Below, in pieces: positions 2,566-28,231 of a stretch of 64,000 nt of DNA; the first letter of the stretch is position 1, and every line of letters begins with the position of its first letter. Made by a program: the position numbers and the translations under genes. Source of the DNA: a virus; IMG/VR virus record IMGVR_UViG_3300046660_000488, positions 408,640 through 472,639 of that record; one strand, 5' to 3'. The notes under the pieces are model-generated. The model searched no databases, was not told where the DNA came from, and saw nothing but the letters and a program-made list of their open reading frames with translations.

Positions 2566-2568
2566 TAC

Positions 2569-3099: not shown

Positions 3100-3136
3100 G
3101 CACAGACTATCACACTCTACTTGCTTTGCAAGCAGA
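3100..3136 (-). promoter_or_regulatory. conserved promoter-like element, copy B
   Basis: The block cagacTAtCACACTCTACTTgctTTGCAAGC matches copy A. Confidence 0.4.
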
Positions 3137-3162
3137 TTCTGAAGCACAGATGGAGAAAGTTG

Positions 3163-3483: not shown

Positions 3484-3515
3484 GATGATCTCCTCAACTT
3501 CATTTCGAGAAAGGC

Positions 3516-3543
3516 ATCATAGCACAGTTAGTATAGGTGTCAA
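3516..3543 (-). promoter_or_regulatory. sigma70-type promoter (TTGACA-N16-TATGAT)
   Basis: On the minus strand: TTGACA (3543..3538), a 16-nt spacer, then TATGAT (3521..3516). A GC/T-rich upstream tract is present. The hexamers are consensus-quality. Confidence 0.55.
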
Positions 3544-3574
3544 GCAAAAGCCCCCGGAATTGCTTCCGAGGGCT
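3544..3574 (-). terminator. rho-independent terminator after the 3600..4679 gene
   Basis: On the minus strand: AGCCCTCGGAAGCAATTCCGGGGGCT followed by TTTTGCTT. Confidence 0.5.
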
Positions 3575-3599
3575 CCACTTACTCGATACTGTGTTACGC

Positions 3600-4679: not shown

Positions 4680-4694
4680 GATGCTTATCCTTCC

Positions 4695-6509
4695 TTAGTT
4701 GCTGAAGCTGAGTGCGGTGATGGCTTGGCCAGCGTTCAGGCGGAAGCGCACGAGGATTTCATTCCCCGTTGCCGACGTCGAAGAAGCCGTACCGAAGGTC
4801 ATTTGGAACGAGCCAGTGGCGCCGCTCATGACCGTACCCGACGCACAGCCAGCGACGGTGTCGCCAGCTTCACCGGGGATACCGGCGCCGTCATAGGGTG
4901 CGAAACCGTTCCACCAAACGCCGCCCAGCGAGTTCGGCTGAGCCGTCGAAACGCCCGGAAGAGCGATCCAGCAGCCAGCGTACGTGCCGGTGACGTTGAT
5001 CTTGAACTGCGAGAGAGCCGTACGGGCGAACGAGAACGTCACGTACTGGACTGCATCGCGGCCCGAGAGGTTCGGACCAACCGGCAGATAACCGGTCGAG
5101 TAGTTGGTTTGGTCAGCCTTCAGGATACCGCCGACGACAGCCGCTTCGTGAGCAGCCAGCGCAGCCGTAGCGTCCCAAGCGACAGTCGAGGCGTTCGGGG
5201 TGTTGCCCGTGCCCTTGCTGACGCGGATGGCGTTGTTCGCGTTCGGCGAAGAGCCCAGACCCGAGACCGGGATGGACAGTTCGTCAACCTTCGAAGCAGC
5301 CGCGACGCCGCGCTTGACCAGAACGATGTTGCTGGTCAGGTTCGTTGCCGTGCTGGAGCCGTTGACGTTTTTGGCGACGGCCGTGAGAGCGCCCATGCCA
5401 TGCGTCGCGCCGTCCACGTTGATCGTCACCGGCGTGATGGCCGTGGCGGTCGTGGTGTTGGCGGCGAACGGGGTCGAGAGACCCATGTTCGTGTAGGTGA
5501 AGGTCTGCGACGAGATCACCGAGTTGGCGCCCGAGACGACGACCGGGTCAGAACCACCGTAGTAGGTTTGGCCCGACAGGTTCGACATCGACAGACCAAC
5601 AGTCAGCGTGCCCGACGTGTTGTAGTGCGGAACCGACGACGAGTAGGCGACCGTACCGGCACTGGCCTGAGCCAGCGACGTTGCGGTGATCGCCGGAACG
5701 GCCGTGACGTTGTCGCGAACGAGGAAGACATCCGAAGTCGTGCCCGAACCGGTGTGGTTCAGCTTGATCTTGTTGATGCCGGTGCTCGTGGCGCCGCCAG
5801 TGATCTGGATGTCAACCGACTTCCAGAAACCCGGCGTAGCGACCGGGAAGTCTTTCTGATCGGAAATGACCAGACCCGAGAACGTGCCAGCGTCGCCCGT
5901 ACCCGTGAGGGTCTTGGAGCCGACGACAGTGCCGTTCAGCAGGAATTGGACCGTGCCCGAATTGCCCGGACCCATGTCGTTGAAGACGTTCGAGTTGACG
6001 GCAGCGATAGTGCGGGTGACCGCGCTACCAGCCGACAGGCCCGAGCCACCGCCCGAAGCGTCAGCAGCACCGGTGGCGAGCAGCGGAGTGCTACCCGAGG
6101 TGTTGGCGACGGTCAGAGCGTTCGCGTTCGGGAACGACGGCGGCGATGCCGGGACCAGAAGGCCCAGAATTTCGTTCAGACGGTCAACTGCTTCCGAGAC
6201 CGGAGTCGCGTCAGACAGTGAGACGGCGCCCGGCGTCCACGAGCCATCGCCATTGACGGCGACGTTGCCCAGCGGGACGTGGAAACCGTCGTTAGCAGCA
6301 ACCGCGTTGGACACGAAGGTCGTAACTTGACCCAGTGTGACAACGTCGGTGTCGCTTACGGCGTTAGCAGCACGCATAACGGCCAGACCTGCGTCTGCCG
6401 CGTTGCGAACTTCGACAACACCACCGTTCACTTTGAGGCGAGGACCCGCCTTACCAAACTGAACGTTGGTGCCTACGCCTGTAAGCCCAAAGTTTTTAAT
6501 TTCAGCCAT
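4695..6509 (-). CDS. tail fibre protein
   Basis: A 604-aa ORF. Its N-terminus MAEIKNFGLTGVGTNVQFGKAGPRLKVN matches the widespread phage tail-fibre N-terminal motif. The rest is a long G/S/T/A-rich shaft. A CTAAATAC late box (minus) lies at 6536..6544. Confidence 0.65.
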   Translation of the reverse strand: MAEIKNFGLTGVGTNVQFGKAGPRLKVNGGVVEVRNAADAGLAVMRAANAVSDTDVVTLGQVTTFVSNAVAANDGFHVPLGNVAVNGDGSWTPGAVSLSDATPVSEAVDRLNEILGLLVPASPPSFPNANALTVANTSGSTPLLATGAADASGGGSGLSAGSAVTRTIAAVNSNVFNDMGPGNSGTVQFLLNGTVVGSKTLTGTGDAGTFSGLVISDQKDFPVATPGFWKSVDIQITGGATSTGINKIKLNHTGSGTTSDVFLVRDNVTAVPAITATSLAQASAGTVAYSSSVPHYNTSGTLTVGLSMSNLSGQTYYGGSDPVVVSGANSVISSQTFTYTNMGLSTPFAANTTTATAITPVTINVDGATHGMGALTAVAKNVNGSSTATNLTSNIVLVKRGVAAASKVDELSIPVSGLGSSPNANNAIRVSKGTGNTPNASTVAWDATAALAAHEAAVVGGILKADQTNYSTGYLPVGPNLSGRDAVQYVTFSFARTALSQFKINVTGTYAGCWIALPGVSTAQPNSLGGVWWNGFAPYDGAGIPGEAGDTVAGCASGTVMSGATGSFQMTFGTASSTSATGNEILVRFRLNAGQAITALSFSN

Positions 6510-6535
6510 TGCAATCTCCCAAGAAAATGCCTCGG

Positions 6536-6544
6536 GTATTTAGG
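6536..6544 (-). promoter_or_regulatory. late-promoter-like box CCTAAATAC
   Basis: The box lies about 28 nt upstream of the tail-fibre ATG. A GGGAGA SD sits between them. Confidence 0.45.
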
Positions 6545-6624
6545 CAGTGGCCAGCTATGTTCTCGTATAGCTTAAATGTTTTTGAAGTTAAACCTGACGT
6601 TATTACTTCGTCGGGTGGCCGACG

Positions 6625-6941
6625 CTATTCCAGATACTTTTCGATAATCTCGGAATACTTGCCATCGAGCTTCATGCAGAACACCAACCAGCCTTTGTTC
6701 CAGACTGGACGTGGGTTTTCGGAGATCGTTTCGACGATCTTGGGGAAGTCCTGAAGGATGAACAGGACATCGTCGGCCATGGCGATAGCCGAGTTGACAA
6801 TGTGGTTGGTGTCGATCTGCGCGTCGAAGATGTTCGGGATTTGCCCGACCCAGACCGCCCGCGCCACAGGCGACATGCTGACGATCTCAGCGCGCATTTC
6901 TGCACGCTGAGCAGTCGTCAAATGACCGATCCGGTTCATGC
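6625..6941 (-). CDS. hypothetical protein
   Basis: The start was chosen at MNRIGHLT. This ATG overlaps the stop of the upstream gene in an ATGA arrangement. Confidence 0.4.
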
Positions 6942-7742
6942 CTTCGGCTTGGCTCTCGACTTGCGGGGCTTGCGCGGCGCCTTGCCCTGCTCTTCGATCT
7001 GGGCCTTCACGGCTTCCATCGCCGCGCAGGCGGCTTCCCATTGGCCGCTTTCGATCAGACGGCGCTTGGCGTTGGCTGCGGCCTGTTCCATCGTGATCGT
7101 CGGCTTGCCGTCTTCGACCGCTTTCTTGGCGGCGGCGTGCTTGTAGTCGAGGGCTTCGTTGGTCAGGCGGTGCAGACGTTCAGTCGCCTTCGCGTCCAGC
7201 ATCACTTCGTCCCAGTGGCCGTACTTGGAGTGGCGGCCCATGATATAGCCGAGACCCAGACCCAGACGCTTCCAGAAGCCGGTGGCCAGATTGCTCAGGT
7301 AGGGCTTCAGGTAGAAATCGCCATCGACTGGGTCGAGCACGAATTTGAACACGTGGTCATCGCTGTGACATTCGCACTCGAAGTATTCGGTCTTGGTGTC
7401 CTCGTCGTCGAACGCCTCGTGGTCCTTGTCGCAGTGGGCAAGGCCAGTGTTGGGATCGGCCAAGGCGTCAGAGGTGTCGTGCGTCTCCAAAGCCTTGTGG
7501 ATGGCGATGGTGGCGTCGATGATCGAGGTCTGAAACTCGGGGGTGAGTTCGGTGTAGGCCTTGTCGCGGATTTGTCCGGCGAGGACTTCCAGCGGAATGG
7601 CGGCTTCGACGAGCGCCCGGCGGCCGGAGCGGACTTCAGCGACCAAGAGAAGCATCAGTTGGGTCATGCCCGTCTCGTCCGGCTCTGACAGCTTGTCGCG
7701 GCAGATGCGGTCGAGGTCGTCCAGAAGTTTTTGCGTGAACAT
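6936..7742 (-). CDS. hypothetical protein
   Basis: A 268-aa ORF with the start chosen at MFTQKLLDD. Another in-frame ATG lies at 7787. Confidence 0.4.
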   Translation of the reverse strand: MFTQKLLDDLDRICRDKLSEPDETGMTQLMLLLVAEVRSGRRALVEAAIPLEVLAGQIRDKAYTELTPEFQTSIIDATIAIHKALETHDTSDALADPNTGLAHCDKDHEAFDDEDTKTEYFECECHSDDHVFKFVLDPVDGDFYLKPYLSNLATGFWKRLGLGLGYIMGRHSKYGHWDEVMLDAKATERLHRLTNEALDYKHAAAKKAVEDGKPTITMEQAAANAKRRLIESGQWEAACAAMEAVKAQIEEQGKAPRKPRKSRAKPKA

Positions 7743-8026: not shown

Positions 8027-8091
8027 CGGCTTATTACAGTCTGGTCATCAATATCGTCTGTATTTAAGCATGGTTTACCAAATGGCACAAG

Positions 8092-8556
8092 CTAAATCGA
8101 ATTCTCGTCCATTTTGGTGATCCGCTTGGCGGCCAAGGACTTTTTGCGTTCCTTTTCCGACTGGTGCGCGCGGTACACAATGCACGGACCCATCCAGCCA
8201 TATGGCCCCACGAACAGTGCGGTGATCAGCCACCAGTCTTGGTTTTTAACGAACCACGGGATGTGGTGCGTGACCGTCAGCATGCCCAGCGTACCGAAGA
8301 ACACGAGCAGCAGAAAAGTCGGGCCGAACGTGATGATCTCAGACCTGATCCACCGGCGCCGAGCATCTTGTTCGTCCGGGGTCACCAGCAGACCAAGCTC
8401 GTCTTCCAGCATGGCCTGTCGTTCGGCCATCGCGCAGACCTTCTTGAACCAGTGGCGGTCGTTGATGCCAATGGGGCACGGTCCGGTCTCCGGCGTCCAC
8501 GAGACGAAATCGGCGACGATCTTCTGAGCCCGGTCGGCCACCACGGGTTTCATCGG
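8092..8556 (-). CDS. membrane protein with two predicted TM helices
   Basis: The start at MKPVVADRAQ has its ATG overlapping the serS stop (ATGA). Hydrophobic stretches are IITFGPTFLLLVFFGTLGML and WWLITALFVGPYGWMGPCIVY. Confidence 0.45.
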   Translation of the reverse strand, partial: PMKPVVADRAQKIVADFVSWTPETGPCPIGINDRHWFKKVCAMAERQAMLEDELGLLVTPDEQDARRRWIRSEIITFGPTFLLLVFFGTLGMLTVTHHIPWFVKNQDWWLITALFVGPYGWMGPCIVYRAHQSEKERKKSLAAKRITKMDENSI

Positions 8557-9827
8557 ATGACTTCCAACCCGTTCATGTAGGGTTGCAGGACGCGGGGCAC
8601 GCGGATCGAGCCATCCTCGTTCTGGTAATTCTCCATGACGGCGACCAGCGTGCGGCCGACCGCCAACCCCGAACCGTTGAAGGTCCGCAGGTAACGGTTC
8701 TTGCCACCGTCGCTGGGCTTGTAGCGGGCGTTCATCCGCCGGGATTGGAATTGCCCGAAGTCCGACACGCTCGAAATTTCGCGGTAGGTCTCTTGGCTCG
8801 GAATCCAAACCTCGATGTCGATGGTCTTGGCGGCCGAGAAGCCGGTGTCGCCGCCGCACAGCAGTACCGTGCGGAACGAAAGCTCCAGAGCGCCCAAGAT
8901 GCCTTGGGCGTTGATCAGGATGAAGTTGTGCTCGTTCGCCGTTGCGCTGTCAGTTATCGAGACCAACTCGACCTTGTAGAATTGGTGCTGGCGAATCAGG
9001 CCGCGCGTGTCACGTCCGGCCGAACCCGCCTCGGCGCGGAAGCATGGCGTCAGAGCCACGTAGCGCAGGGGAAGCTGATCCTCGGGGATGATCTTGTCGC
9101 GGACAAGGTTGGTGATCGAAACCTCGGCGGTCGGGATCAGCCAGTGATCCGACTCCGGAATGTGGAACAGGTCGTCCTTGAATTTTGGAAGCTGGCCGGT
9201 CCCGATCAGAGCGTTGGCGTGGACCATCAGCGGAGGATTGACCTCCATGAAGCCGTTCATGGCGTGGCGGTCGAGCATGAATTGGCCAAGCGCCCGTTCG
9301 AGACGCGCCAGCGGACCCTTGGTCACGCAGAACCGGGCGCCGCTCATTTCAGCCGCCGCCTCGAAATCCATCATGCCGAGATTTTCACCCAGCGTGACGT
9401 GGTCCTTGGGTGTGAACGAGAAATTCGGGCGAAGTAATGGGAAGTCAGAGATCACCTTGTTGTGGCTCTCGTCCACGCCGATGGGCACACCAACGTCCAG
9501 CATGTTCGGGATACGCAGCAAGGTTTCTTGAACTTGCTCGTGCAGCTTGCGCTCGTTGGCCGTGGAATCCGAGAGGAAGCCCTTCAGCGCGGTCATCGAC
9601 TCAATCGCCCGCTGGCGCTCGATGCCTTGAAGCGTTGGGATGCGGGCAGATTCCTCGTTGCGCTGCTGAAGCAGGCTTTCGGAATTTTGAATGGCCTTGC
9701 GGTGCTGCTGGTCCAGATCGACCAGCGTGTTGATCAGTACCGAAGCTTCGGCGTGGGTCATCCCCTTCCGGCCAAGCTCGCTGATGACAGCATGCGGGTT
9801 GTCGCGGACGAATTTCAGATCAAGCAT
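8550..9827 (-). CDS. serS: seryl-tRNA synthetase
   Basis: A 425-aa ORF. It has an N-terminal coiled-coil arm and class-II aaRS core motifs (FRAEAGSAGRDTRGLIRQHQF, GSGLAVGRTLVAVMEN). The overall collinearity with SerRS is clear. Confidence 0.85.
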   Translation of the reverse strand: MLDLKFVRDNPHAVISELGRKGMTHAEASVLINTLVDLDQQHRKAIQNSESLLQQRNEESARIPTLQGIERQRAIESMTALKGFLSDSTANERKLHEQVQETLLRIPNMLDVGVPIGVDESHNKVISDFPLLRPNFSFTPKDHVTLGENLGMMDFEAAAEMSGARFCVTKGPLARLERALGQFMLDRHAMNGFMEVNPPLMVHANALIGTGQLPKFKDDLFHIPESDHWLIPTAEVSITNLVRDKIIPEDQLPLRYVALTPCFRAEAGSAGRDTRGLIRQHQFYKVELVSITDSATANEHNFILINAQGILGALELSFRTVLLCGGDTGFSAAKTIDIEVWIPSQETYREISSVSDFGQFQSRRMNARYKPSDGGKNRYLRTFNGSGLAVGRTLVAVMENYQNEDGSIRVPRVLQPYMNGLEVIR

Positions 9828-9830
9828 ATG

Positions 9831-9882
9831 GCCGGGCCTTTTTACGAGGCCCGACCATAGGGATGTGACTAATTTTCGTCAA
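9831..9882 (-). promoter_or_regulatory. serS leader: sigma70-like promoter (TTGACG-N16-TATGGT) plus a 9-bp stem hairpin abutting the start codon
   Basis: On the minus strand: TTGACG (9882..9877) and TATGGT (9860..9855). Next comes GGTCGGGCC-TCGTAAAAA-GGCCCGGCC directly before the ATG. No free SD is visible. Confidence 0.35.
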
Positions 9883-9892
9883 CCAGAATTGC

Positions 9893-10000
9893 TGGACATT
9901 TGCCGGACATCGCCGGACATGGATCAGCTAGTTAAGTCATTGATTTTTATGAGGGTGGCTCTGGCATCCGAACATTTGCTGGACATTTGCTGGACATCAA
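9893..10000. repeat. two clusters of short direct repeats TTGCYGGACAT (5-6 copies)
   Basis: Cluster one reads gctggacatttgccggacatcgccggacat. Cluster two reads tttgctggacatttgctggacat. The two are separated by an AT-rich stretch. Confidence 0.45.
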
Positions 10001-10209
10001 CCCAGCAAGTGCTCGATGACGCTACCAAAGACCCCGGAGTCGGGATCAGAATTATGTGGTGGATGCGCGTTTCTCGCCTTGACCTCTTCCACTTCATCTG
10101 GAGAGACAAGGACCATCCGGCCGGGGTATTTGAGCCACGTGTGGCCGTCAGCAACCCATAGGGTCTCAGAAACCCAAACCATGCCGTCTTCGTCGGGTTC
10201 CATCATTTC
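9997..10209 (-). CDS. hypothetical small acidic protein
   Basis: The sequence is MEPDEDGMVWVSETLWVADGHTWLKY... Its start overlaps the stop of the 10203..11156 gene. Confidence 0.35.
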   Translation of the reverse strand, partial: EMMEPDEDGMVWVSETLWVADGHTWLKYPGRMVLVSPDEVEEVKARNAHPPHNSDPDSGVFGSVIEHLLG

Positions 10210-11156
10210 AGGCCGACCAGCCAAGCGGCATCGTGCGAAATCCGGGTGTCGAAGATCGAGAATTCCGTGATGGTCTTGGGGACCTCGAAGCCGATGCCAC
10301 GCAGTTGGGTCGCGATGTTCTCACAGCTTCCCTTGAACCTTTCGTACGTGCCGTCGTATTTCCGGTAGGTGACCATCATGACGTAGGTGTCGTCGCTGAT
10401 TTTCTTGAAGGCATTCCGTGAGACGTGGGCGTCGAGATCGTAGGCGGCGGCGCGAAGGCCTTCGATCCGGTCGTCGCTGACCACCACGTTGAAGTGGGCC
10501 TCAAAATAGCACGCCGGGGGCATCGCCTGACGACTGTGGCTATTGGACGGAGCCGCCGGATGCCACGGAACAGTCTCGATTTTCTGGCGGGCCACGTTAT
10601 AGCCGCGTTCGACCAGATCATCCTTGATCCGGCTCACTTCAAGGAACGCCGAGCGGTTGTCGCCCATGTGGACCGACGAGGTCTGGGCGTCGAGCATAAC
10701 GGTCTCGCCATGTTGGTTGTGCAGGTCGATCAGCAGCGGCTTGACGCCGATCTCCGCGCAGTCGGCCTTGTACTGCTCGATGTTCAGGCCACCCTCGCCC
10801 GGCGAGACGGTGACGTGGATTTCGTAGGGGAGCGGGTAGGTGACGTCGCGCTCGCGGGTCTGAAGTTCGTCCCAGTACTGGGCCTTCTTCATCATCATCG
10901 ACCCGATGTCGTCGTGGCTGTAGCCCAACTGGTAGGCGACACTCAGCGCGCAGAGGATGACGTCGGCCGTCTCTTCAAGGATGCGCTCGGAGGTGACGAA
11001 CCGGTGGGTCGTGGTCGGCACGTTGTCGAAGGGCAGGACGGCCTTGGCCAGTTCGCCGACTTCTTCAGCCGTCTTCAGGGCCTTTTCGGTCAGGGTCTTC
11101 TTATCCTTGGCGGACAGCGCGGCGATATAGTCGAAAATCTCGGGTTTCATGACCAC
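10203..11156 (-). CDS. MazG-like nucleotide pyrophosphohydrolase domain protein with an unknown C-terminal domain
   Basis: The N-terminus EEVGELAKAVL...ILEETADVILCALSVAYQLG resembles the all-alpha MazG/NTP-PPase fold. Confidence 0.45.
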   Translation of the reverse strand: MVMKPEIFDYIAALSAKDKKTLTEKALKTAEEVGELAKAVLPFDNVPTTTHRFVTSERILEETADVILCALSVAYQLGYSHDDIGSMMMKKAQYWDELQTRERDVTYPLPYEIHVTVSPGEGGLNIEQYKADCAEIGVKPLLIDLHNQHGETVMLDAQTSSVHMGDNRSAFLEVSRIKDDLVERGYNVARQKIETVPWHPAAPSNSHSRQAMPPACYFEAHFNVVVSDDRIEGLRAAAYDLDAHVSRNAFKKISDDTYVMMVTYRKYDGTYERFKGSCENIATQLRGIGFEVPKTITEFSIFDTRISHDAAWLVGLK

Positions 11157-11428
11157 CTCAATTTGAAAAGTGTGAATTTACTCAAATCGTCTGAACTGAA
11201 TTCAATAGTTGTGTCTTGCATCATGCGAAACTGGTCTGTGTACGTATAGTACACTGCATGATACTTGAAGTTGTTCTCTTCGGACCATTCTTTGAATTCT
11301 TCGGTGAGTTCAAGCTTGACGCCGAGTTCTGTCGTAATGGACAGGCCATTGGCGCGATGAACCGGAGCGGCAACCAGCGTCGCTACGTCCGGGCCAACTT
11401 TCATCCTGAATTTTCCGCGAACGCTCAT
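11147..11428 (-). CDS. hypothetical protein
   Basis: A 93-aa ORF. A TTGGTTTACCAA palindrome lies 16-27 nt upstream. Confidence 0.4.
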   Translation of the reverse strand: MSVRGKFRMKVGPDVATLVAAPVHRANGLSITTELGVKLELTEEFKEWSEENNFKYHAVYYTYTDQFRMMQDTTIEFSSDDLSKFTLFKLRWS

Positions 11429-11482
11429 CGGCCGGGTCCTATTTGGTTTACCAACCTACCCCGACCGGAAATTAGCGCGCAA

Positions 11483-12193
11483 TTAACTTGACTGCGGACC
11501 GGTTGGGTCTGCGTTGGTGTAATCGCTGAACTGGGTCGGATCGTCGGAGACGGGTTGGTCCTCGTCGCTGATGAACAGCCAGCCAAAATCCTCGCCCTGC
11601 GACGCTTGGTAGTCGTCCACGGCATTGGCCACCGCACCATTGGCCACCGCGTCGAGCACGATCAGCGAGATCGGGTCGTAGAGCATGGCTTGCAGGCTGG
11701 TCGCTTCGCTCAGGGTCGCCGACACATTCAAGGCGTTGGCAAAGCTGACGCGCTCCGTGGTCATCAGGTCTTCGACATCGTCGGCCAGCGCCAGCAGGGC
11801 ATTGGCGGTCGAGGGAAGACCATCGGCCGCGACCTGCACGTTGGCGATGATCGCGTTGGCTTCGCCGAGCAGAGAGCCGAAGAAATCGCCCAACGCATTG
11901 GCCGAGTCGTGGACGTTCAATTCGCCGTTGGCCATCAGCACGCCGGTGTAGGCGCCGTAGATGTCCATGTTGGCCGACAGGTTGGTCAACTGGGTGCTGA
12001 GGTGCGAGGACAGTTCGTAGAAGGCGCCGCCGGGCACGGTGGTCTCGGCCACATTGTTGGCGGTCGCGCCGGTCAGGGTTCCGAGCTTGCTGACGATGGT
12101 GCTGACGGCCGTGTTAGCCCGGTCCGGCAGGCTGTTGTCCAGCGCGGTTCCGTTCATCAGGGCGATGTAGAAAGCCTTCTGCGTCTCATCCAT
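11483..12193 (-). CDS. hypothetical protein, possibly a virion or baseplate component
   Basis: A 236-aa ORF, Ala/Asn/Leu-rich and acidic at the C-terminus. Confidence 0.4.
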   Translation of the reverse strand: MDETQKAFYIALMNGTALDNSLPDRANTAVSTIVSKLGTLTGATANNVAETTVPGGAFYELSSHLSTQLTNLSANMDIYGAYTGVLMANGELNVHDSANALGDFFGSLLGEANAIIANVQVAADGLPSTANALLALADDVEDLMTTERVSFANALNVSATLSEATSLQAMLYDPISLIVLDAVANGAVANAVDDYQASQGEDFGWLFISDEDQPVSDDPTQFSDYTNADPTGPQSS

Positions 12194-12195
12194 GG

Positions 12196-13008
12196 TCAGC
12201 GCATCTTCTTCAGGCCGGAGACATAGTTGCCGTTGGTCACGGCGGTGAGGACTTGCTTGCGGTTACCGGTGCGGTTGAAGCTACCGTGCAGCCACGGGCG
12301 GTTGCCCAAGTACTCAAGGATGAATTGATCGTAGCAGACGTTGTCCTTGATCCATTTCGCACGGACCCAGTACTCATCGTCGCTGATGTTCAGGAACTGC
12401 ACGTCGGCGGCCATGCCGCGCTCATGCTGGCTCTTCGACGAACCGGCCCGGAAGCCAGACGTGATGATCATGTTCCGGCGGCCGTATCGGGCGGCCAGAG
12501 GTTCGAGGTAATTCGTGCACATCCCTTTGAGGTTGCACACGATCTGAGCCACGGTCAGGCCATGCTGGGCGACGACGCCTTGACGGCTGATGGCCGTGCC
12601 GACCGTCACGTCTGACAGCTTGAAATTCGGGGATAGCTGCAAGCTGTATGGGACCGTGCCGCGAATGTTCGCGCAGTCGGCTGGTAGCGGACCCGTGTTG
12701 TTCGTCACGAGGTCGTCGGTGGCCAGCGGCGATCCGGCCGATCCCGTCAGCGAGTTCGAGCGGGCGCGCTCCATCGCGGTGGGCGAACGGCCATAGACCG
12801 GGGGATAGACGGCCAGCCCGTCATCCGACTCGGGATCATCATCCTCGGAGCCGAGATCACGTTCGTCATAGATGACGACCTGACCGTTGATCGAATAGCT
12901 GATCGAAGGCGATCCCGTCGCCGGGTCGGTGAACATGCTGCTCGCGCCGGTGACGATCTTGTCGCCCTTCGCGGTCAGACTTCCAACTCTGGCAACGGGA
13001 AAAGCCAT
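12196..13008 (-). CDS. PAAR-like spike-tip domain fused to a peptidase M15 (LAS-family D-Ala-D-Ala / L-Ala-D-Glu peptidase) domain
   Basis: The N-terminus MAFPVARVGSLTAKGDKIVTGASSMFTDPATG...INGQVV has a PAAR-like AARVGD/ING pattern. The C-terminus ITSGFRAGSSKSQHERGMAADVQF matches the M15 SxHxxGxAxD zinc motif. Confidence 0.55.
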   Translation of the reverse strand: MAFPVARVGSLTAKGDKIVTGASSMFTDPATGSPSISYSINGQVVIYDERDLGSEDDDPESDDGLAVYPPVYGRSPTAMERARSNSLTGSAGSPLATDDLVTNNTGPLPADCANIRGTVPYSLQLSPNFKLSDVTVGTAISRQGVVAQHGLTVAQIVCNLKGMCTNYLEPLAARYGRRNMIITSGFRAGSSKSQHERGMAADVQFLNISDDEYWVRAKWIKDNVCYDQFILEYLGNRPWLHGSFNRTGNRKQVLTAVTNGNYVSGLKKMR

Positions 13009-13009
13009 T

Positions 13010-13342
13010 TTAGACGATCAGGCCCGACTTGGGCGGCGTCACGATGGACGACGTCGCTTGGATGTAGGCGTCCTTGATGTCCTGACGCGGCGCGGCCGGG
13101 GCCACGAGCACGTTGGCCTTGTAGAACACGGCCTTGTCGTTGTTGGCGACCGTGGTCATGAACGGGCCAAAGCCCAGCGACGGCTGTCCAGTTTCCGGGT
13201 GAGCTTGCAGACCGCAAAGCACCGGCTTGCCGATGACGAGTTGAGTGTCGGTATCCGAAATCAGTTTTCCGACGATTTCCTCGCCTGTGCTGATGCGGAA
13301 GCAAACAACGTCGCCCTCGCCAGCTTTCTTCTCGATGATCAT
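13010..13342 (-). CDS. hypothetical protein
   Basis: A 110-aa ORF and the first gene downstream of the sigma70-like promoter at 13364..13391. Confidence 0.45.
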   Translation of the reverse strand: MIIEKKAGEGDVVCFRISTGEEIVGKLISDTDTQLVIGKPVLCGLQAHPETGQPSLGFGPFMTTVANNDKAVFYKANVLVAPAAPRQDIKDAYIQATSSIVTPPKSGLIV

Positions 13343-13363
13343 GAGGGGAATTCTCCAAAATAT

Positions 13364-13391
13364 ACGCCATCATAGCACTCGGCGACGGCGT
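13364..13391 (-). promoter_or_regulatory. sigma70-type promoter (TTGAGA-N16-TATGAT)
   Basis: On the minus strand: TTGAGA (13391..13386) and TATGAT (13369..13364). A GGAGA SD lies 9 nt before the ATG at 13342. Confidence 0.45.
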
Positions 13392-13537
13392 TCTCAATTT
13401 CCACATTTCGTAAAGTCTATTTATTTCGGCCGTGGAGCAAGTATCCGGCCGCTATGGGGTAAATACACAACTTAAGCCTTGCCACGCTATCCTTCTGATA
13501 ACGCCTATGTTTACGGGAGGAGATAGACGGCCTCGCG

Positions 13538-13545
13538 CTAAATAC
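13538..13545 (+). promoter_or_regulatory. late-promoter-like box CTAAATAC upstream of the tail sheath gene
   Basis: The box lies about 32 nt upstream of ATG 13577. A GGAGG SD sits between them. Confidence 0.45.
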
Positions 13546-13576
13546 TCAAAAGACGTTTTCTCGGAGGTCTTACTTA

Positions 13577-16513
13577 ATGGCTACTCTCGTTTCGCCGGGC
13601 GTCGATGTTCAAATCATCGACGAATCCTTCTACAGCAGCGCTGGTCCCGGTACGGTCCCGCTGATCATCATCGCGACTGCTGCAAACAAGACTGCGGCTT
13701 CGGGCGGTACGGCTCCGTACACGATCCCGTCGATGGCAGGCTCGCTCTATCTGGCCACTTCGCAGCGCGAACTGGTTCAAAACTACGGCGTCCCGACTTT
13801 CCAGACCGTGCAAGGCACGCCTGTTCAAGGTTCGGAACTCAACGAATACGGCTTGGATGCTGCGTACAAGTTCCTCGGCATCAGCAACCGCGCTTATGTG
13901 CTGCGCGCTGACATCGACCTTGCTGCTCTGCAACCGTCCACGACGGCGCCGGTCGGCAACCCTCTGCCGGGCACTTACTGGTTCGACCTGAGCGAGACTT
14001 CGTTCGGTGTGTTCCAGTCGTCGGGCAACGCCAATCCGGGTCTGGCTTGGTCCACCCAACCTGTCCTGATCGCTGCTGAAGGCAACGTTGTCCCCGATGG
14101 CGACACCGATGTCCCGAACCCGGCGTTCGGCAACGACGGCGACTTCGCCGTGGTCGTCACCATGTCGGACAACCTGATCTACGAAAAGATCGACGGTGCT
14201 TGGTATCAAACCGGTTCCGACGAGTGGGCCGCTAAGCGCCCGACGACGATCACCGGCCGCACGACGCCGAACAACATCATGACGACGGACACCATCGTCA
14301 TCACGAGCGACGGCCAGCAATACACGGTCGCCTTCGACACGACCCTCGACCTCGGCGGCAATGCCGTCGTCGGCACGGGCGCGCTGGACGAAGTCGTCGC
14401 CAACATCAACGCCGCCGCTATCCCGAACGTCGTCGCGACCAACACGAACGACGCTCTGGTCATCAAGGACACGACCGGCGCCGACATCACCATCGGCAAC
14501 GGCGCTGGCACTCCGCTGACCACGCTGGGCATCGTTCCGAACCTGTACCGTGGCGTGAAGGTCTACTTCACCAACAACGCCCAGTACCCGGCTAACTCGG
14601 CGACGGGTTCGGTCTGGATCAAGGGTTCGATCCCGAACAAGGGCGCTCTGTGGAAGATTAAGCTGTGGAGCAACACCGGTGGCTGGACCACGGTTGCTGC
14701 ACCGTTCTACGCCTTCAACTCGTCCCTGAACGACGGCGTCGCCTCGAAGGACCAAGCCGCCACGGCCGCCTTCGGCACTCCGCTGATCGGCACGGTCTAT
14801 GTTGGCTTCGACGCCGACACCGGCGTGCAGCAACTGCGTCGCTGGAGCGGCCTGCGCTGGGAAAACCTGAGCTACGAAGCTGGTACGGTTCCGCCGACCA
14901 CCGCTCCGGCCTCGGGCACGTACTGGTACAACGCTGATTTCCGCGCCGACATCATGTACGGCGACGGCACGCAGTGGGTTGGCTACAAGCGCAAGTACAC
15001 CGAAACGGACCCGGAAGGCGTTCTGTTCGCGGGCACGGCGCCGCTGTATCAGTCGGACGGCACTGAACTGGTCGATAACGACCTGTGGGTCGATACGAGC
15101 GACCTCGAAAACTATCCGATGCTGTATCGCTATGACGCGACCGCAGTCCGTTGGAACCTGATCGACAAGACCGACCAGACGACGCCGTTCGGTATCGCCT
15201 TCGCCGACGCTCGTCAGAACTCGGGAACCAATTACACCGGCAACCCGAACCCCGGCACGTACGCCTACAACTCGGAAGAAGCCGCCGACATGCTGGCGTC
15301 CAATTTCGTCGATCCTGACGCTCCGGATGCCCGCACGTATCCGGACGGCATCCTGATGTTCAACACCCGCTACGCGACGTACAACGTCAAGGAATGGATG
15401 CCGAACTACTTCAAGCGTGGTGGTTTCGACGAGAACACCGACTACACGATCACCGACTACCACAACAGCGGTAGCGCTGGCCTGTTCCCGGCTCTGGCTT
15501 CGGCTGGCCGTTGGGTCACGGCTTCGGGCAACAAGGCTGACGGCACGCCGTACATGGGCCGCAAGGCTCAGCGTCTGATGATCGTTCGCGCCATGGCCGA
15601 AATGATCGCTCAGAACGAAGATATCCGTTCGGAATTGGTCTACTTCAACCTCATCGCGGCTCCGGGTTATCCGGAACTGATGGATGAAATGGTCGCGCTG
15701 AACACCGACCAGAAGGAAGTGGCGTTCGTCGTTGGCGACACCCCGATCCGTCTGGCTCCGGGTGGCACGACTGTCTCGGCTTGGGCTGGCAACACGAAGA
15801 ACGCACCGTCCACGGGCGAAGACGGTCTGACCGTCGCCAACCCGTACGTCGGCGTCTACTACCCGTGGGGTCTGGGAACCGACCTGAGCGGCAACGAAGT
15901 GATGATCCCGCCGTCCACGATGGCGCTGAACACCATCGCGTACAACGACCAAGTTGCATACCAGTGGTATGCTCCGGCTGGTTACCGTCGCGGTCTGGTC
16001 ACGAATGCTTCGTCGGTGGGTTACCTCACCAGCGAAGGCGAATTCAAGCCGGTCATCCTCAACCAAGGACAGCGCGACGTCCTGTACAGCAACAAGATCA
16101 ACCCGATTGCCTACATTCCGGGTCGTGGTCTGGTTGTTTACGGTCAGAAGACGCTGCACAGCACGACTACCGCGCTGGACCGCATCAACGTTGCCCGTCT
16201 GTCGAACTACCTCAAGTACAACCTCGACAACATCGTCAAGCCGTTCCTCTTCGAACAGAACGACGAACAGACCCGCTCTTCCGCACAGGCGACTGTCGAG
16301 AGCTTCCTGAACGGTCTGGTCGGTCTGCGCGCACTGGAAGACTACGTGGTTCTCTGCGACGAATCGAACAACACGCCGACTCGCCGCGACCGCAATGAAC
16401 TCTGGATCGACATCGCTATCAAGCCGCTGAAGGCCGTCGAGTTCATCTACATCCCCGTGCGAATTGTAAATTCGTCGGCGGACCTCACCGACGTTTCGAC
16501 GACTTTCGTCTAA
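13577..16513 (+). CDS. tail sheath protein (gp18-like)
   Basis: A 978-aa ORF. The N-terminus MATLVSPGVDVQIIDES matches the conserved sheath start (T4 gp18 MTLLSPGIELKE). A strong terminator follows the gene. Confidence 0.75.
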   Translation: MATLVSPGVDVQIIDESFYSSAGPGTVPLIIIATAANKTAASGGTAPYTIPSMAGSLYLATSQRELVQNYGVPTFQTVQGTPVQGSELNEYGLDAAYKFLGISNRAYVLRADIDLAALQPSTTAPVGNPLPGTYWFDLSETSFGVFQSSGNANPGLAWSTQPVLIAAEGNVVPDGDTDVPNPAFGNDGDFAVVVTMSDNLIYEKIDGAWYQTGSDEWAAKRPTTITGRTTPNNIMTTDTIVITSDGQQYTVAFDTTLDLGGNAVVGTGALDEVVANINAAAIPNVVATNTNDALVIKDTTGADITIGNGAGTPLTTLGIVPNLYRGVKVYFTNNAQYPANSATGSVWIKGSIPNKGALWKIKLWSNTGGWTTVAAPFYAFNSSLNDGVASKDQAATAAFGTPLIGTVYVGFDADTGVQQLRRWSGLRWENLSYEAGTVPPTTAPASGTYWYNADFRADIMYGDGTQWVGYKRKYTETDPEGVLFAGTAPLYQSDGTELVDNDLWVDTSDLENYPMLYRYDATAVRWNLIDKTDQTTPFGIAFADARQNSGTNYTGNPNPGTYAYNSEEAADMLASNFVDPDAPDARTYPDGILMFNTRYATYNVKEWMPNYFKRGGFDENTDYTITDYHNSGSAGLFPALASAGRWVTASGNKADGTPYMGRKAQRLMIVRAMAEMIAQNEDIRSELVYFNLIAAPGYPELMDEMVALNTDQKEVAFVVGDTPIRLAPGGTTVSAWAGNTKNAPSTGEDGLTVANPYVGVYYPWGLGTDLSGNEVMIPPSTMALNTIAYNDQVAYQWYAPAGYRRGLVTNASSVGYLTSEGEFKPVILNQGQRDVLYSNKINPIAYIPGRGLVVYGQKTLHSTTTALDRINVARLSNYLKYNLDNIVKPFLFEQNDEQTRSSAQATVESFLNGLVGLRALEDYVVLCDESNNTPTRRDRNELWIDIAIKPLKAVEFIYIPVRIVNSSADLTDVSTTFV

Positions 16514-16544
16514 GCTTCGGCTCCTTAGTACCTCCGAGAAGGAA

Positions 16545-16577
16545 GGGCGGCTCCACATTGGGGCCGCCCTTTTTCTT
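16545..16577 (+). terminator. rho-independent terminator (probably bidirectional)
   Basis: GGGCGGC-tccacattggg-GCCGCCC followed by TTTTTCTTT. It lies between convergent genes. Confidence 0.55.
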
Positions 16578-16993
16578 TAGCGCCGCTCAAGAAGGTGGCG
16601 GTGAACTGCGATCACCCGGCGGGAGACCATCACCAAGGCTTCAGCCTCGGGGTCTTCTTCATCGGCGAAGTCGTCGAGGAACGCCAACAGGTTGGAGTCA
16701 GCCGTTGCCGCCACGATGTCCAGAGCGACATCCGGGCCGATCTTGAACCGGTAATCCTGAAGAATCTGGATGACGATGGGAAGAAAGGCGCCCGCCTCTT
16801 CGGCCAGATCACGCGCGAATACCAACCCGAAATAGTTGGTGAAGAACGACTTGCTGTCGTCGGGGATTTCCGTGAGCAGGTCAACAAGCACTTCGGCGCG
16901 ACGTTTGGCCTCTTCAGAGTCCATGATCTCCGTGATTTTGCGGTTTTGCTCGATGATTTCTTCGATACGAGAAGACTTGTTGTCGTCAGTCAT
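16577..16993 (-). CDS. hypothetical acidic protein
   Basis: The start was chosen at MTDDNKSSRIEEIIEQ. A GGAG SD lies 10 nt upstream. This ORF was preferred over the plus-strand ORF 16595..16999. Confidence 0.45.
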   Translation of the reverse strand: MTDDNKSSRIEEIIEQNRKITEIMDSEEAKRRAEVLVDLLTEIPDDSKSFFTNYFGLVFARDLAEEAGAFLPIVIQILQDYRFKIGPDVALDIVAATADSNLLAFLDDFADEEDPEAEALVMVSRRVIAVHRHLLERR

Positions 16994-17033
16994 GGGTAAA
17001 TGTCTCCAGTAAACACTGACTATAACTCGCCTC

Positions 17034-17042
17034 CATAAATAC
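17034..17042 (+). promoter_or_regulatory. late-promoter-like box CATAAATAC upstream of the tail tube gene
   Basis: The box lies about 50 nt upstream of GTG 17093. Confidence 0.4.
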
Positions 17043-17092
17043 AAGCAAGAAACGAAGCGCATCCAGCGCCAGTATTTTTCGAGGTATACTAC

Positions 17093-17680
17093 GTGAGCAC
17101 ACTACAAAATATGGGTGTTCCGCTTGGCGGTGGCACTGGTCGTGGCGGTCTTCTGATGCCGAAGACCCGTCAGAAGTTCCGCGTGCGGGTCACCAATTTC
17201 GGTCCGGTCAACGGTGGTCTTGAACTGACGCAGCAAGTCGTCAGCGTCGGTCGCCCGTCCGTCTCGATGTCCGGCCAAGCCGTCCACTCGTACAACTCTA
17301 TCGGCTACTACGCCGGTAAGGCCGAGTGGTCCACGCTTGATCTGACGGTTCGCGACGACATCACCAACGCGGTCTCCAAGCTGGTGGGTCACCAGCTTCA
17401 GAAGCAAATGAACTTCTATCAGCAGACTTCTGCTGAAGCAGGTTCCAACTACAAATTCCAGATGTTCCTTGAAACGCTGGATGGCGGCAACGACACCGTC
17501 ACCGAGCAGTGGATCATCGAAGGCTGCTTCCTCGAATCGATCAACTACGGCGACTTCGCCTACGATTCGTCGGACGCCCTGACGATCCAGATGACGGTTC
17601 GCTACGACAACGCCACGCAGCAGGGTGGCCTGATGCCGGTCAACCCGCAACTCGGCGTTGGCAAGATGGTTGGTTCCTAA
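17093..17680 (+). CDS. tail tube protein (gp19-like)
   Basis: A 195-aa ORF with a GTG start and GAGG SD. Its size, position after the sheath, and C-terminal pattern WIIEGCFLESINYGDFAYDSSDALTIQMTVRYDNA are tube-like. Confidence 0.6.
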   Translation: MSTLQNMGVPLGGGTGRGGLLMPKTRQKFRVRVTNFGPVNGGLELTQQVVSVGRPSVSMSGQAVHSYNSIGYYAGKAEWSTLDLTVRDDITNAVSKLVGHQLQKQMNFYQQTSAEAGSNYKFQMFLETLDGGNDTVTEQWIIEGCFLESINYGDFAYDSSDALTIQMTVRYDNATQQGGLMPVNPQLGVGKMVGS

Positions 17681-17694
17681 GACAGTAGGACGCA

Positions 17695-19095
17695 ATGCCC
17701 GACTTCATTAAGAGTCCTCGGCAGGCGACAACGGTTTTTGGCCTTGATGGTCAGTCCGTCCCGCGCAAGAAGAGCTTGTTCTATGTCCGCTTTCGGCGGG
17801 CAGACAACGCTCAAGCGGGACGGGCTGGCTGGCAAGACAATCTGGGTTTCATGGCGAAGTCGGTTGACCGACCTTCTGTCCAGCCCCAGATTGAAGAGCT
17901 TAACCAGTACGGCAAGAAGCGCCAAGTCACCACCGGAATCAAGAATCAACCCGCGCGGATCGTGTTGTATGACACGGCCGATAGCATGGCTATGCGTATG
18001 TGGGTGGAGTACAGCCGCTGGTACTTCGGCGAATACCGCCAAGACTCAGATGCGATGTGGGACTACGATGTCACCACAGAAGAAATGTATGGCATGGATG
18101 AGGGTTTCGGCTTCACGCTGCGGAACTCGTCGTCGGATGCTATCGACCTCAACTCGCAATTCTTCTTCGACGCACTTGAGGTCTATCAAGTCTGGGGTGG
18201 ATATTTCACCCAGTTTGACCTGATCAATCCCAAGATCAGCGCGTTCGACCCCGACGAACTTGACTATTCGGTCACCGAGCCATCCACGATCAGCGTCACG
18301 CTGAACTATGAGGCGATGATCCACCAGAACGGCGCCGCGCCGCAGCCGATCTCGTCTGATCCTCTTGTCGCATCGGTGTTCGGCGGTCTGTTCAACGGCA
18401 ACACGTTCGATCCCGAGGGCGCTGCGTCCTCGAAGCCGCGACACGGCTACAATTTCACCGACAAGGATGTGGCCCCCGCGCCGCTGTCCTTCCGGAACAA
18501 GACGCTCGGCCAGATCGTGGACAGCGCTCTGCACACCGCGACCGGGTCGCAAGGCGTTGGCTCGCTGGGCATCTTCGGCAATTTCAACTTCGGCGCGGCC
18601 ACCGGCGTCAACACCGGCAGTCTGGCGGGCGACATTTCGTACCTCGCCACCGGAAACCCGGCGCTGGCATCGGTGCTGAACCAGACGGTCGGCCAAGCCG
18701 CGACGTCTGCCTCTTCGCGCATCCTGTCCACGGGGTCGTCGAACGTCGTCTCCGGCTATTCGTCCAGCAAGGTCGATACGGCCAAGAGCGCCCTGCTCGG
18801 CGCGGCGACGAACGTGTCCAACAAGTACGCCAATCAGTACGTCAACAACAACCTGTTGGGCGGCGTAGTCGCCGCTGGCGTCATTGAAGGCACACCCGCC
18901 ACGGATCAGGTCTCGAAGACTTCGTCCGGCCTGTCCCTGAAGAGCATGGCTCTGGCGGTCATCAACTCCAATCGCGCTCCGGTAAGCCAGATCGGCTTCA
19001 ACCAAGTGACCCAGCTTACCCCCGTCGTTGCTGACAGCAACCCGGCCGGGTTCCTTCCCGCAGGTGTTCCGGACGTGAATTTTGACGAGGATTAG
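17695..19095 (+). CDS. tail tube-related / virion structural protein
   Basis: A 466-aa ORF directly after the tube gene. The N-terminal region looks like a tube-fold and the C-terminus is a G/S/A-rich extension. Confidence 0.45.
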   Translation: MPDFIKSPRQATTVFGLDGQSVPRKKSLFYVRFRRADNAQAGRAGWQDNLGFMAKSVDRPSVQPQIEELNQYGKKRQVTTGIKNQPARIVLYDTADSMAMRMWVEYSRWYFGEYRQDSDAMWDYDVTTEEMYGMDEGFGFTLRNSSSDAIDLNSQFFFDALEVYQVWGGYFTQFDLINPKISAFDPDELDYSVTEPSTISVTLNYEAMIHQNGAAPQPISSDPLVASVFGGLFNGNTFDPEGAASSKPRHGYNFTDKDVAPAPLSFRNKTLGQIVDSALHTATGSQGVGSLGIFGNFNFGAATGVNTGSLAGDISYLATGNPALASVLNQTVGQAATSASSRILSTGSSNVVSGYSSSKVDTAKSALLGAATNVSNKYANQYVNNNLLGGVVAAGVIEGTPATDQVSKTSSGLSLKSMALAVINSNRAPVSQIGFNQVTQLTPVVADSNPAGFLPAGVPDVNFDED

Positions 19096-19097
19096 TA

Positions 19098-19634
19098 GTG
19101 GCCAAAAAGCCAACTATCACGACCGGTGGTGATTTCGAAGTAAAAGTGCAGGCCCACGCCAACAAGAAGAAAACGGCGAACGGCGTCTTCACTCCCAAGA
19201 ACCCCGACAAGTATCACGGCAAGCATCCGATCTCCTACCGTTCCTCATGGGAATTGCGGGTGATGATGAAGCTGGACGACCACCCGTACTATCTGGCGTG
19301 GAGTTCGGAGTCGGTGAACGTCACCTATTACCACCCCTATTACCGCAAGTGGAAGACGTATCTCCCTGATTTCTTGGTCAAATACATGGACCGGAACGGC
19401 AAGCACCACATCGAAATGATCGAGGTCAAGCCGGTCAAGGAAAGCCCGCTCCACGACAGCAAGAAATTGCCGAACGGTAAATACCAGAAACTACGTCTGA
19501 ACGAACAGACCAAAGCAATCCGCAACGTCAATGCTGCGAAGTGGCAAGCCGCCAAAGCATTCTGCGATGCCAAGGGCTGGAAGTTCGTCGTCTGGACGGA
19601 AGAAGAAATCTTTCAATGGGATGGTAGGAAATGA
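19098..19634 (+). CDS. PD-(D/E)xK nuclease-like protein
   Basis: LPDFLV...KHHIEMIEVKP gives a PD ... E-V-K arrangement. The GC content is lower than that of the neighbouring genes. Confidence 0.4.
   Translation: MAKKPTITTGGDFEVKVQAHANKKKTANGVFTPKNPDKYHGKHPISYRSSWELRVMMKLDDHPYYLAWSSESVNVTYYHPYYRKWKTYLPDFLVKYMDRNGKHHIEMIEVKPVKESPLHDSKKLPNGKYQKLRLNEQTKAIRNVNAAKWQAAKAFCDAKGWKFVVWTEEEIFQWDGRK

Positions 19635-26587: not shown

Positions 26588-28231
<1,644 letters not shown>

What the first reader, a model, noticed from the sequence alone, without database searches (positions are those of the whole stretch)
12196..13008. PAAR-like spike tip fused to an M15 peptidoglycan peptidase
The N-terminus has the PAAR-like pattern (P-V-A-R-V-G ... 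I-N-G). The C-terminus has the LAS/M15 zinc motif S-x-H-x-x-G-x-A-x-D. In T4 the cell-puncturing device carries lysozyme on gp5 and a separate PAAR on gp5.4. Here a PAAR-type tip appears to carry the wall-degrading enzyme itself. The gene sits in a minus-strand block driven by a sigma70-type promoter, together with small unknown genes.
Basis: inference. Interest (0 to 1): 0.55.

Follow-up and report, generated by a model that had tools for sequence, protein, structure and literature searches.

The report
Cell-wall peptidase with one-third PAAR anchor

The parts
12196..13008 (-). Complete ORF, 270 aa plus stop codon: single PAAR repeat, then hairpin and acidic linker, then M15 peptidase
   Evidence: ORF list. 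An identical protein, P0001, is recorded on a 578-kb contig. GC3 is 0.80, typical of genes in this window.
12919..13008 (-). Residues 1-30: one PAAR repeat (MAFPVARVGSLTAKGDKIVTGASSMFTDPA), equivalent to the third repeat of a full PAAR domain; it contains no Cys or His
   Evidence: Alignment to long homologs. hhalign 93%, E 2.8e-7, matching template columns 68-111 only. No Pfam PAAR hit at E<=10. pLDDT 51-68. Mean pairwise identity is 63% over residues 1-25 among 7 short forms, against 58% for the catalytic domain.
12676..12918 (-). Residues 31-111: beta-hairpin (36-47), acidic DDDPESDDGL element and linker; conserved together with the peptidase as one cargo module
   Evidence: pLDDT 84-94 in the AF2 model. 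The same segment precedes the peptidase in PAAR-fused forms and in gp5-hub-fused forms, e.g. P0091 'ILVDGQEIEYTEVDFGTTADEPDVDNGL'.
12199..12675 (-). Residues 112-270: LAS-fold (MEROPS M15-type) zinc peptidoglycan peptidase domain
12403..12432 (-). SQHERGMAAD (residues 193-202): H195 and D202 are the first two predicted Zn ligands
   Evidence: Read directly from the sequence. Invariant in 67 homologs.
12286..12288 (-). H241, the predicted third Zn ligand (in the W-x-H-x-S motif)
   Evidence: W239, H241 and S243 are invariant in 67 homologs.
13010..13342 (-). Upstream 110-aa ORF (PHROG 527, function unknown). Its stop is 1 nt before the ATG of the peptidase gene. It is not the missing part of the PAAR.
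   Evidence: PHROG hit. A homologous ORF of about 110 aa lies directly upstream in loci with short forms and in a locus with a long form. Cyanophage homologs lie in the replication module between gp44 and NrdC.
11483..12193 (-). Downstream 236-aa ORF, Ala-rich, with a weakly similar counterpart directly downstream in five related loci (L005, L007, L008, L009, L010); function unknown
   Evidence: Synteny and alignment. No Pfam or PHROG hit. No tblastn hit in phage records.
13369..13397 (-). Sigma70-like promoter match, TTGAGA-17-TATGAT (with TG), upstream of the block
   Evidence: The count does not exceed that in shuffled sequence.
13417..13424 (-). ATAAATAG, a T4-late-promoter-like element 76 nt upstream of the 110-aa ORF. 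It belongs to a motif class that is strongly over-represented in the window.
   Evidence: ATAAATA occurs 6 times against 0.9 expected, and TAAATAC 18 times against 1.0 expected. These sites lie upstream of the sheath, tube, terminase and other genes.

Best explanation
The gene encodes a tail-spike-associated peptidoglycan peptidase. Residues ~31-270 form a conserved cargo module: a beta-hairpin, an acidic DDDPxxDDGL linker and a LAS/M15 zinc peptidase whose predicted Zn ligands are H195, D202 and H241. In relatives this module is attached either to the C-terminus of a complete PAAR cone or to the C-terminus of the gp5-type hub beta-helix, so it sits at the tip of the contractile-tail puncturing device. 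There it would cut peptide stems or cross-links of the host wall during injection. In this lineage of very large uncultured phages the carrier has shrunk to one PAAR repeat (residues 1-30), which corresponds to the third repeat. That repeat is the most conserved part of the protein, so it is probably still the docking element. Shown here: the domain identities, the homology of the N-terminus to PAAR repeat 3, the recurrence and conservation of the single-repeat form, and the attachment of the same module to spike proteins in relatives. Inferred: presence in the virion, action during entry, and docking at the spike tip. Speculative: that three copies assemble into a cone with true three-fold symmetry.
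For: M15/LAS identity. Long homologs carry a true PAAR: Pfam 36-77 bits, and the family profile hits the solved PAARs 4jiw (7e-9), 4jiv, T4 gp5.4 (5iv5/4ku0) and phiKZ 6p1z. The short N-terminus matches only the third repeat. The single-repeat form recurs: 7 of 67 close homologs and at least 11 representatives among the top 150 at 50% clustering. All start M-x-x-P-x-A-R-V-G at residues 1-9. The N-terminal 25 residues show 63% mean pairwise identity, against 58% for the catalytic domain and 37-42% for the linker. The same module ends proteins with Gp5_OB, Gp5_trimer_C or Gp5_C domains, including Cr30 gp242, whose gene is followed by a separate PAAR gene. [quoted passage not shown] The gene lies divergently next to the tail sheath and tube genes, in conserved synteny. 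The upstream region carries the ATAAATA-type motif that also precedes the sheath, tube and terminase genes.
Against: There is no direct evidence that this protein is in the virion. The PA5oct mass-spectrometry list also includes ribonucleotide reductase, thymidylate synthase and other enzymes, so it is weak evidence of structural status. The gene lies in a block with non-structural genes (MazG-like, seryl-tRNA-synthetase-like), and no hub, baseplate or other PAAR gene is in the 64-kb window. The closest PHROG is labelled 'endolysin'. A lone repeat cannot form a PAAR cone as a monomer: AF2 gives residues 1-30 pLDDT 51-68. On its own the N-terminal profile is not significantly similar to solved PAARs. 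A rough NJ tree of the peptidase domain does not group the short forms as one clade.
Confidence: 0.6

Rival explanations
1. It is a soluble lysis enzyme (an endolysin, or another cytoplasmic or periplasmic wall-remodelling peptidase) descended from a spike-borne ancestor, and the N-terminal repeat no longer docks on the tail.
For: PHROG 894 is labelled endolysin. M15 homologs in podoviruses and siphoviruses (Pelagibacter phage HTVC010P, Stenotrophomonas phage Salva) are annotated as endolysins. Pfam PAAR is not detected. The neighbours in the block are non-structural genes, and a sigma70-like promoter match lies upstream.
Against: The N-terminal 25 residues are the best-conserved segment across diverged short forms (N-termini), which is not what a decaying remnant would show. 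Read by eye, the three nearest ORFs (110, 236 and 93 aa) have no long hydrophobic stretch of the kind a holin or spanin has; no membrane-helix predictor was run. Nearly all close relatives of this peptidase subfamily are fused to spike parts. A related short-form locus (L007) separately encodes a Hydrolase_2 enzyme of the type proposed as the pf16 endolysin (PMC5587285).
Confidence: 0.2
2. Split PAAR: the single repeat is completed in trans by a protein with two PAAR repeats, or by another spike protein, encoded elsewhere in the 578-kb genome. The tip would then be a heteromeric cone carrying one peptidase.
For: The repeat alone is predicted to be unfolded. There is a precedent for a PAAR completed by a separated segment: the prePAAR motif of T6SS effectors, described in bioRxiv 10.1101/2020.10.28.356139 / PMC7773334, which I found but did not read in detail; this description is from my own knowledge. 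Only 64 of the 578 kb could be searched.
Against: No PAAR-like ORF was found in the window with a family HMM run on the six-frame translation. The upstream ORF is not PAAR-like, and it is also present in a locus with a long form. No two-repeat partner is known.
Confidence: 0.1
3. One reading: a complete monomeric PAAR spike tip fused to the peptidase.
For: This is true of the homologs P0003, P0005, P0012, PA5oct gp239 and Vibrio phage NVP1244A_059.
Against: The protein has only one repeat and no Zn-ligand residues, gives no Pfam hit, and has a stop codon 3 codons upstream of the ATG.
Confidence: 0.03

Closest known systems
PAAR-M15 fusion proteins of cultured phages: Pseudomonas phage PA5oct gp239 (probably the gp245 of the paper, matched by description), pf16-like P. 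putida phages ('PAAR motif of membrane protein'), Vibrio phage 1.244.A NVP1244A_059
   Same: The same C-terminal cargo module: hairpin, acidic linker and M15 peptidase. Identity is 45-48% over residues ~107-270, and 33% over residues 6-270 to the Vibrio protein. They share the third PAAR repeat.
   Different: These proteins have all three PAAR repeats and score above the Pfam PAAR threshold. The window protein starts at repeat 3 and lacks the conserved Cys.
T4 gp5 / gp5.4 cell-puncturing device and gp5-type hubs with a C-terminal M15 domain (Caulobacter phage Cr30 gp242 plus separate PAAR gp243)
   Same: In both, a wall-degrading enzyme is carried at the tip of the contractile-tail spike. Cr30 gp242 ends in the same M15 module, 47% identical.
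   Different: In T4 the enzyme is a lysozyme inserted within gp5, and the PAAR (gp5.4) is a separate three-repeat protein. Here there is no OB-fold or beta-helix, and the enzyme is a peptidase.
T6SS/eCIS PAAR proteins with C-terminal effector domains (Shneider et al. 2013; PDB 4jiv, 4jiw)
   Same: The principle is the same: a PAAR element serves as an N-terminal adaptor for a C-terminal enzyme. The family profile hits 4jiw at 7e-9.
   Different: Those are monomeric three-repeat cones with a Zn site. This protein has one repeat and no Zn ligands.
Streptomyces albus G zinc DD-peptidase (1lbu) and other LAS enzymes (VanX, VanXYc, Ply500, LysB4, Hedgehog-N)
   Same: The same fold and the same H...D...H zinc triad.
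   Different: Only 16-18% sequence identity to 1lbu. The bond cleaved is unknown, and the N-terminal appendages differ.

Membership tests
PAAR domain (Pfam PF05488; Shneider et al. 2013) | Scores above the Pfam gathering threshold (27 bits) | tested here: not met
   No hit for the whole protein at E<=1, and none for residues 1-65 at E<=10. Long homologs score 36-77 bits.
PAAR domain (Pfam PF05488; Shneider et al. 2013) | Three PAAR repeats in one chain forming a cone with pseudo-three-fold symmetry | tested here: not met
   There is one repeat only. The alignment starts at repeat 3 of the long forms, and a stop codon lies 3 codons upstream.
PAAR domain (Pfam PF05488; Shneider et al. 2013) | Sequence homology to a PAAR repeat | tested here: met
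   hhalign 93%, E 2.8e-7 to the third repeat of homologs that score as PAAR in Pfam. The direct comparison to solved PAARs is not significant (4jiw E 0.74).
PAAR domain (Pfam PF05488; Shneider et al. 2013) | His/Cys Zn site near the apex | tested here: not met
   There is no Cys or His in residues 1-60. The Cys that is nearly invariant in repeat 3 of the long forms is replaced, giving GSLTAKG.
PAAR domain (Pfam PF05488; Shneider et al. 2013) | Binds the blunt end of the gp5/VgrG beta-helix | not testable with these tools
   This needs multimer modelling, cryo-EM or pull-down experiments.
LAS / MEROPS M15 zinc peptidases (Pfam Peptidase_M15_3) | Pfam score above the gathering threshold | tested here: met
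   23.9 bits against a cut-off of 23.2, residues 128-212. This is marginal, but PHROG 894 at 3e-17 supports it.
LAS / MEROPS M15 zinc peptidases (Pfam Peptidase_M15_3) | H-x6-D plus a distal His as the zinc triad | tested here: met
   H195, D202 and H241 are invariant in 67 homologs.
LAS / MEROPS M15 zinc peptidases (Pfam Peptidase_M15_3) | LAS fold | tested here: met
LAS / MEROPS M15 zinc peptidases (Pfam Peptidase_M15_3) | Peptidoglycan peptidase activity and bond specificity | not testable with these tools
   This needs a zymogram or muropeptide HPLC-MS.
Virion (tail-tip) associated peptidoglycan hydrolases | Enzyme fused to, or docked on, a structural tail component | tested here: inconclusive
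   Relatives are fused to a full PAAR or to gp5 hubs. This protein keeps only one PAAR repeat.
Virion (tail-tip) associated peptidoglycan hydrolases | Present in purified virions | not testable with these tools
   There is only indirect evidence: the PA5oct homolog is flagged ESI-MS/MS, in a list that also includes metabolic enzymes.
Endolysins | Lysis-cassette context (holin or spanin next to the gene) or a secretion signal | tested here: not met
   Read by eye, the three adjacent ORFs (110, 236 and 93 aa) and the N-terminus of the protein show no long hydrophobic stretch. No membrane-helix or signal-peptide predictor was run. No lysis-related PHROG was found among the neighbours.

The most novel reading that the evidence does not exclude
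The conserved single PAAR repeat is a minimal spike cap. Three copies would assemble on the three-fold gp5-type beta-helix into a cone with true three-fold symmetry and no zinc site, placing three peptidase domains at the tail tip. That is the copy number of the hub-fused versions of this module. It would be the first homotrimeric PAAR, and would suggest how the three-repeat PAAR arose by triplication or can revert.
Probability: 0.25. Interest if true: 0.65.

Novelty: new variant of a known kind. Interest (0 to 1): 0.4.

Why it matters
Three points follow. First, phage PAAR proteins can carry enzymes. A survey of jumbo phages described their PAAR proteins as standalone and unfused (PMC7824862), yet PAAR-M15 fusions are common: most of the 67 close homologs, and many of the 1671 representatives. 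Second, one peptidase cargo module has been moved between three carriers: the hub C-terminus, a full PAAR and a single PAAR repeat. This is a clear example of modular evolution of the puncturing device. Third, the single-repeat form gives a testable question about the smallest unit needed to dock on a spike tip. The answer is relevant to engineering payloads on phage tails, tailocins, T6SS and eCIS. The practical value is modest. The enzyme itself is an ordinary LAS peptidase.

Tried and rejected
(1) Could the upstream 110-aa ORF encode the missing two PAAR repeats, through a split gene or a frameshift? Rejected. It has no PAAR motifs. A homologous ORF also precedes a full-length PAAR-M15 gene in L010. 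Its cyanophage homologs lie in the replication module.
(2) Is the start codon mis-called? Rejected. A stop codon lies 3 codons upstream in frame. The Logan copy of the gene and the homologs in four other loci have the same short start, with the neighbouring ORF ending just upstream.
(3) Is there another PAAR or partial PAAR in the window? An HMM of the long-form PAAR region, run on all six-frame segments of at least 40 aa, found only this ORF (E 7e-4) and one weak, unconvincing match at 28227-28520(-).
(4) Is there a gp5/gp27 hub or a baseplate cluster in the window? None was found in PHROG scans of 46 ORFs. The window holds sheath, tube, head closure, terminase, SSB, UvsX, MazG-like and SerRS-like genes.
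(5) Is there a near-identical known phage? Megablast of 9000-20000 found none.
(6) phmmer of the single protein against PDB sequences gave no hit.
(7) The downstream 236-aa ORF has no Pfam or PHROG hit and no tblastn hit in phage records.
(8) tblastn with the Hydrolase_2 endolysin-type protein of locus L007 found nothing in the window.
(9) The sigma70 promoter as evidence of timing: the match exists but its count does not exceed that in shuffled sequence.
(10) Literature searches found no paper that describes a PAAR-M15 fusion or a single-repeat PAAR in phages.

Full report
**The observation**

The ORF at 12196-13008 (minus strand) is real. It is 270 aa, starts with ATG, and has GC3 of 0.80 like other genes in the window. 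A stop codon lies three codons upstream in frame. The preceding 110-aa ORF ends 1 nt before the ATG, so the N-terminus cannot be longer. 'PVARVG' is at residues 4-9.

**The C-terminal domain**

- Pfam Peptidase_M15_3 matches residues 128-212 at 23.9 bits, just above the cut-off of 23.2.
- PHROG 894, labelled 'endolysin', matches residues 123-267 at E 3e-17.
- In an alignment of 67 homologs, H195, D202 and H241 are invariant, as are R187, S193, Q194, D227, Q228, E232 and W239. The three His/Asp residues form the LAS zinc triad.

The peptidase call is secure. The bond it cleaves is unknown.

**The N-terminus**

- It is not a PAAR domain by the usual test. The whole protein gives no PF05488 hit at E<=1, and residues 1-65 alone give none at E<=10.
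- It is related to PAAR, however. Of the 67 close homologs, most are 312-357 aa with a Pfam-scoring PAAR domain (36-77 bits for the five long forms scanned here) followed by the same peptidase.
- The family profile hits solved PAARs: 4jiw at 7e-9, 4jiv, T4 gp5.4 (5iv5/4ku0) and phiKZ 6p1z.
- The window protein and six other short forms of 270-289 aa begin exactly where the third PAAR repeat of the long forms begins.
- hhalign of the short N-termini against the PAAR region of the long forms gives 93% probability, E 2.8e-7, and matches only template columns 68-111.
- On its own, the short N-terminal profile is not significantly similar to solved PAARs (4jiw E 0.74). The link therefore rests on the intermediate sequences.
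The canonical position is taken by SSMFTD, and INGQ lies in a beta-hairpin after the PAAR region.
- Residues 1-60 contain no Cys or His, so the apex zinc site is gone.
- AF2 gives residues 1-30 a pLDDT of 51-68. In a control model of the long homolog P0003, the PAAR region scores 88-97.

**Is the short form an accident?**

No. An all-against-all HMMER search of 1.84 billion representatives found 1671 relatives. At least 11 of the top 150 clusters at 50% identity are single-repeat forms, and all start M-x-x-P-x-A-R-V-G-[SND].

Among the seven short forms first found, mean pairwise identity by region is:

| Residues | Region | Mean pairwise identity |
|---|---|---|
| 1-25 | PAAR repeat | 63% |
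| 26-56 | hairpin region | 37% |
| 57-111 | acidic linker | 42% |
| 112-270 | M15 catalytic domain | 58% |

The repeat is therefore under selection.

Synteny is conserved in the window's own Logan contig (L004) and in four other loci: [large sheath or sheath-like gene, divergent] [~110 aa] [short PAAR-M15] [~240-270 aa]. The ~110-aa ORF also precedes a full-length PAAR-M15 gene in L010. In cyanophages its homologs lie in the replication module. It is therefore not the missing part of the PAAR.

**What the relatives say about function**

Residues ~31-270 (hairpin, acidic DDDPxxDDGL element and peptidase) behave as one cargo module.

- The module follows a complete PAAR in PA5oct gp239, in pf16-like phages and in Vibrio phages 1.244.A and 207E48.1.
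- It also ends bona fide gp5 hubs that carry Gp5_OB, Gp5_trimer_C or Gp5_C domains. Some of these hubs have a T4-type lysozyme as well. One example is Caulobacter phage Cr30 gp242, whose gene is followed by a separate PAAR gene.
[quoted passage not shown] The RefSeq note on gp239 says the same. I equate the two by description, not by sequence. That MS list also includes metabolic enzymes, so it is weak evidence.

Overall, this peptidase subfamily is mainly a spike-tip enzyme.

**Most likely mechanism**

The most likely reading is a tail-tip wall peptidase used at injection, docked through its single PAAR repeat (confidence about 0.6). How one repeat docks is open.

- Three copies could form a cone with true three-fold symmetry on the trimeric hub. 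This would give three peptidases per tip, as in the hub-fused versions. I rate it at about 0.25.
- A partner elsewhere in the 578-kb genome could complete the cone (about 0.1).
- Docking may have been lost, leaving the protein to act as a soluble lysin (about 0.2). In favour of this: the gene shares its block with MazG-like and seryl-tRNA-synthetase-like genes, and no hub, baseplate or other PAAR gene lies in the 64-kb window.

**Expression signals**

The sigma70-like match TTGAGA-17-TATGAT at 13397-13369(-) exists, but its count does not exceed chance. The same intergenic region also holds ATAAATAG at 13424-13417(-). That element belongs to a motif class that is strongly over-represented: TAAATAC occurs 18 times against 1.0 expected, and ATAAATA 6 times against 0.9. 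These sites lie upstream of the sheath, tube, terminase and other genes. The motif also precedes the SSB gene, so it does not settle the timing of expression.

**Novelty**

PAAR-enzyme fusions in phages are already annotated, although a jumbo-phage survey called phage PAARs standalone (PMC7824862). In the papers I searched I found no description of a single-repeat PAAR anchor.

Noticed in passing
window-wide; e.g. 13539-13545(+), 17036-17042(+), 26574-26580(+), 33628-33634(+), 35507-35513(+), 6536-6542(-), 8060-8066(-): The heptamer TAAATAC occurs 18 times against 1.0 expected. Many sites lie 25-80 nt upstream of start codons (sheath, tube, terminase, a virion protein, SSB). It looks like a phage-specific promoter element resembling the T4 late promoter TATAAATA.
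   Followed up: partly
window 43802(-), 53429(+), 57004(-), 58318(+), 59757(-), 59763(+), 61461(+), 63888(+): There is a second, longer motif, CTAAATAYNNCCATGS, which ends in an ATG about 6 nt after TAAATA. At three sites (58318+, 59757-, 61461+) that ATG is the start of an ORF in my gene list; the other sites were not checked against ORF starts. The spacing would fit a -10-like element driving leaderless mRNAs. The motif is clustered in the 43-64 kb part of the window.
   Followed up: partly
window 8550-9827(-): A 425-aa ORF carries Pfam Seryl_tRNA_N and tRNA-synt_2b domains (precomputed) and matches PHROG 16140. It is a phage-encoded seryl-tRNA-synthetase-like protein in the same minus-strand block.
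   Followed up: no
window 13577-16513(+) and 17695-19095(+): The tail sheath is unusually large at 978 aa (PHROG 10581, E 2e-253). A second, 466-aa tail-tube-like protein follows the 195-aa tube protein. The identical peptidase is recorded on a 578-kb contig, so this is a very large phage of the T4 superfamily.
   Followed up: no
L009 (NCBI JBINOA010003469.1, 1,136,180 bp), 2241-7211(-): A short-form homolog (P0014) sits on a 1.14-Mb contig next to a 1656-aa ORF, in the position where the sheath gene lies in the other loci. This could be an extremely large phage genome, a prophage or a chimeric assembly.
   Followed up: no
window 13010-13342(-); L011 3998-4288: The 110-aa ORF (PHROG 527, function unknown) has homologs in T4-like cyanophages, where they lie between the gp44 clamp loader and NrdC/gp62. 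In the large uncultured phages it is instead coupled to the PAAR-M15 gene.
   Followed up: partly
window 39152-43351(+): Several adjacent ORFs (391, 277 and 286 aa) share an N-terminal repeat of about 50 aa that matches many PHROGs of unknown function or labelled 'virion structural'. The 277-aa ORF has two copies of the repeat. This is a paralogous family of possible tail-fibre or decoration proteins.
   Followed up: no
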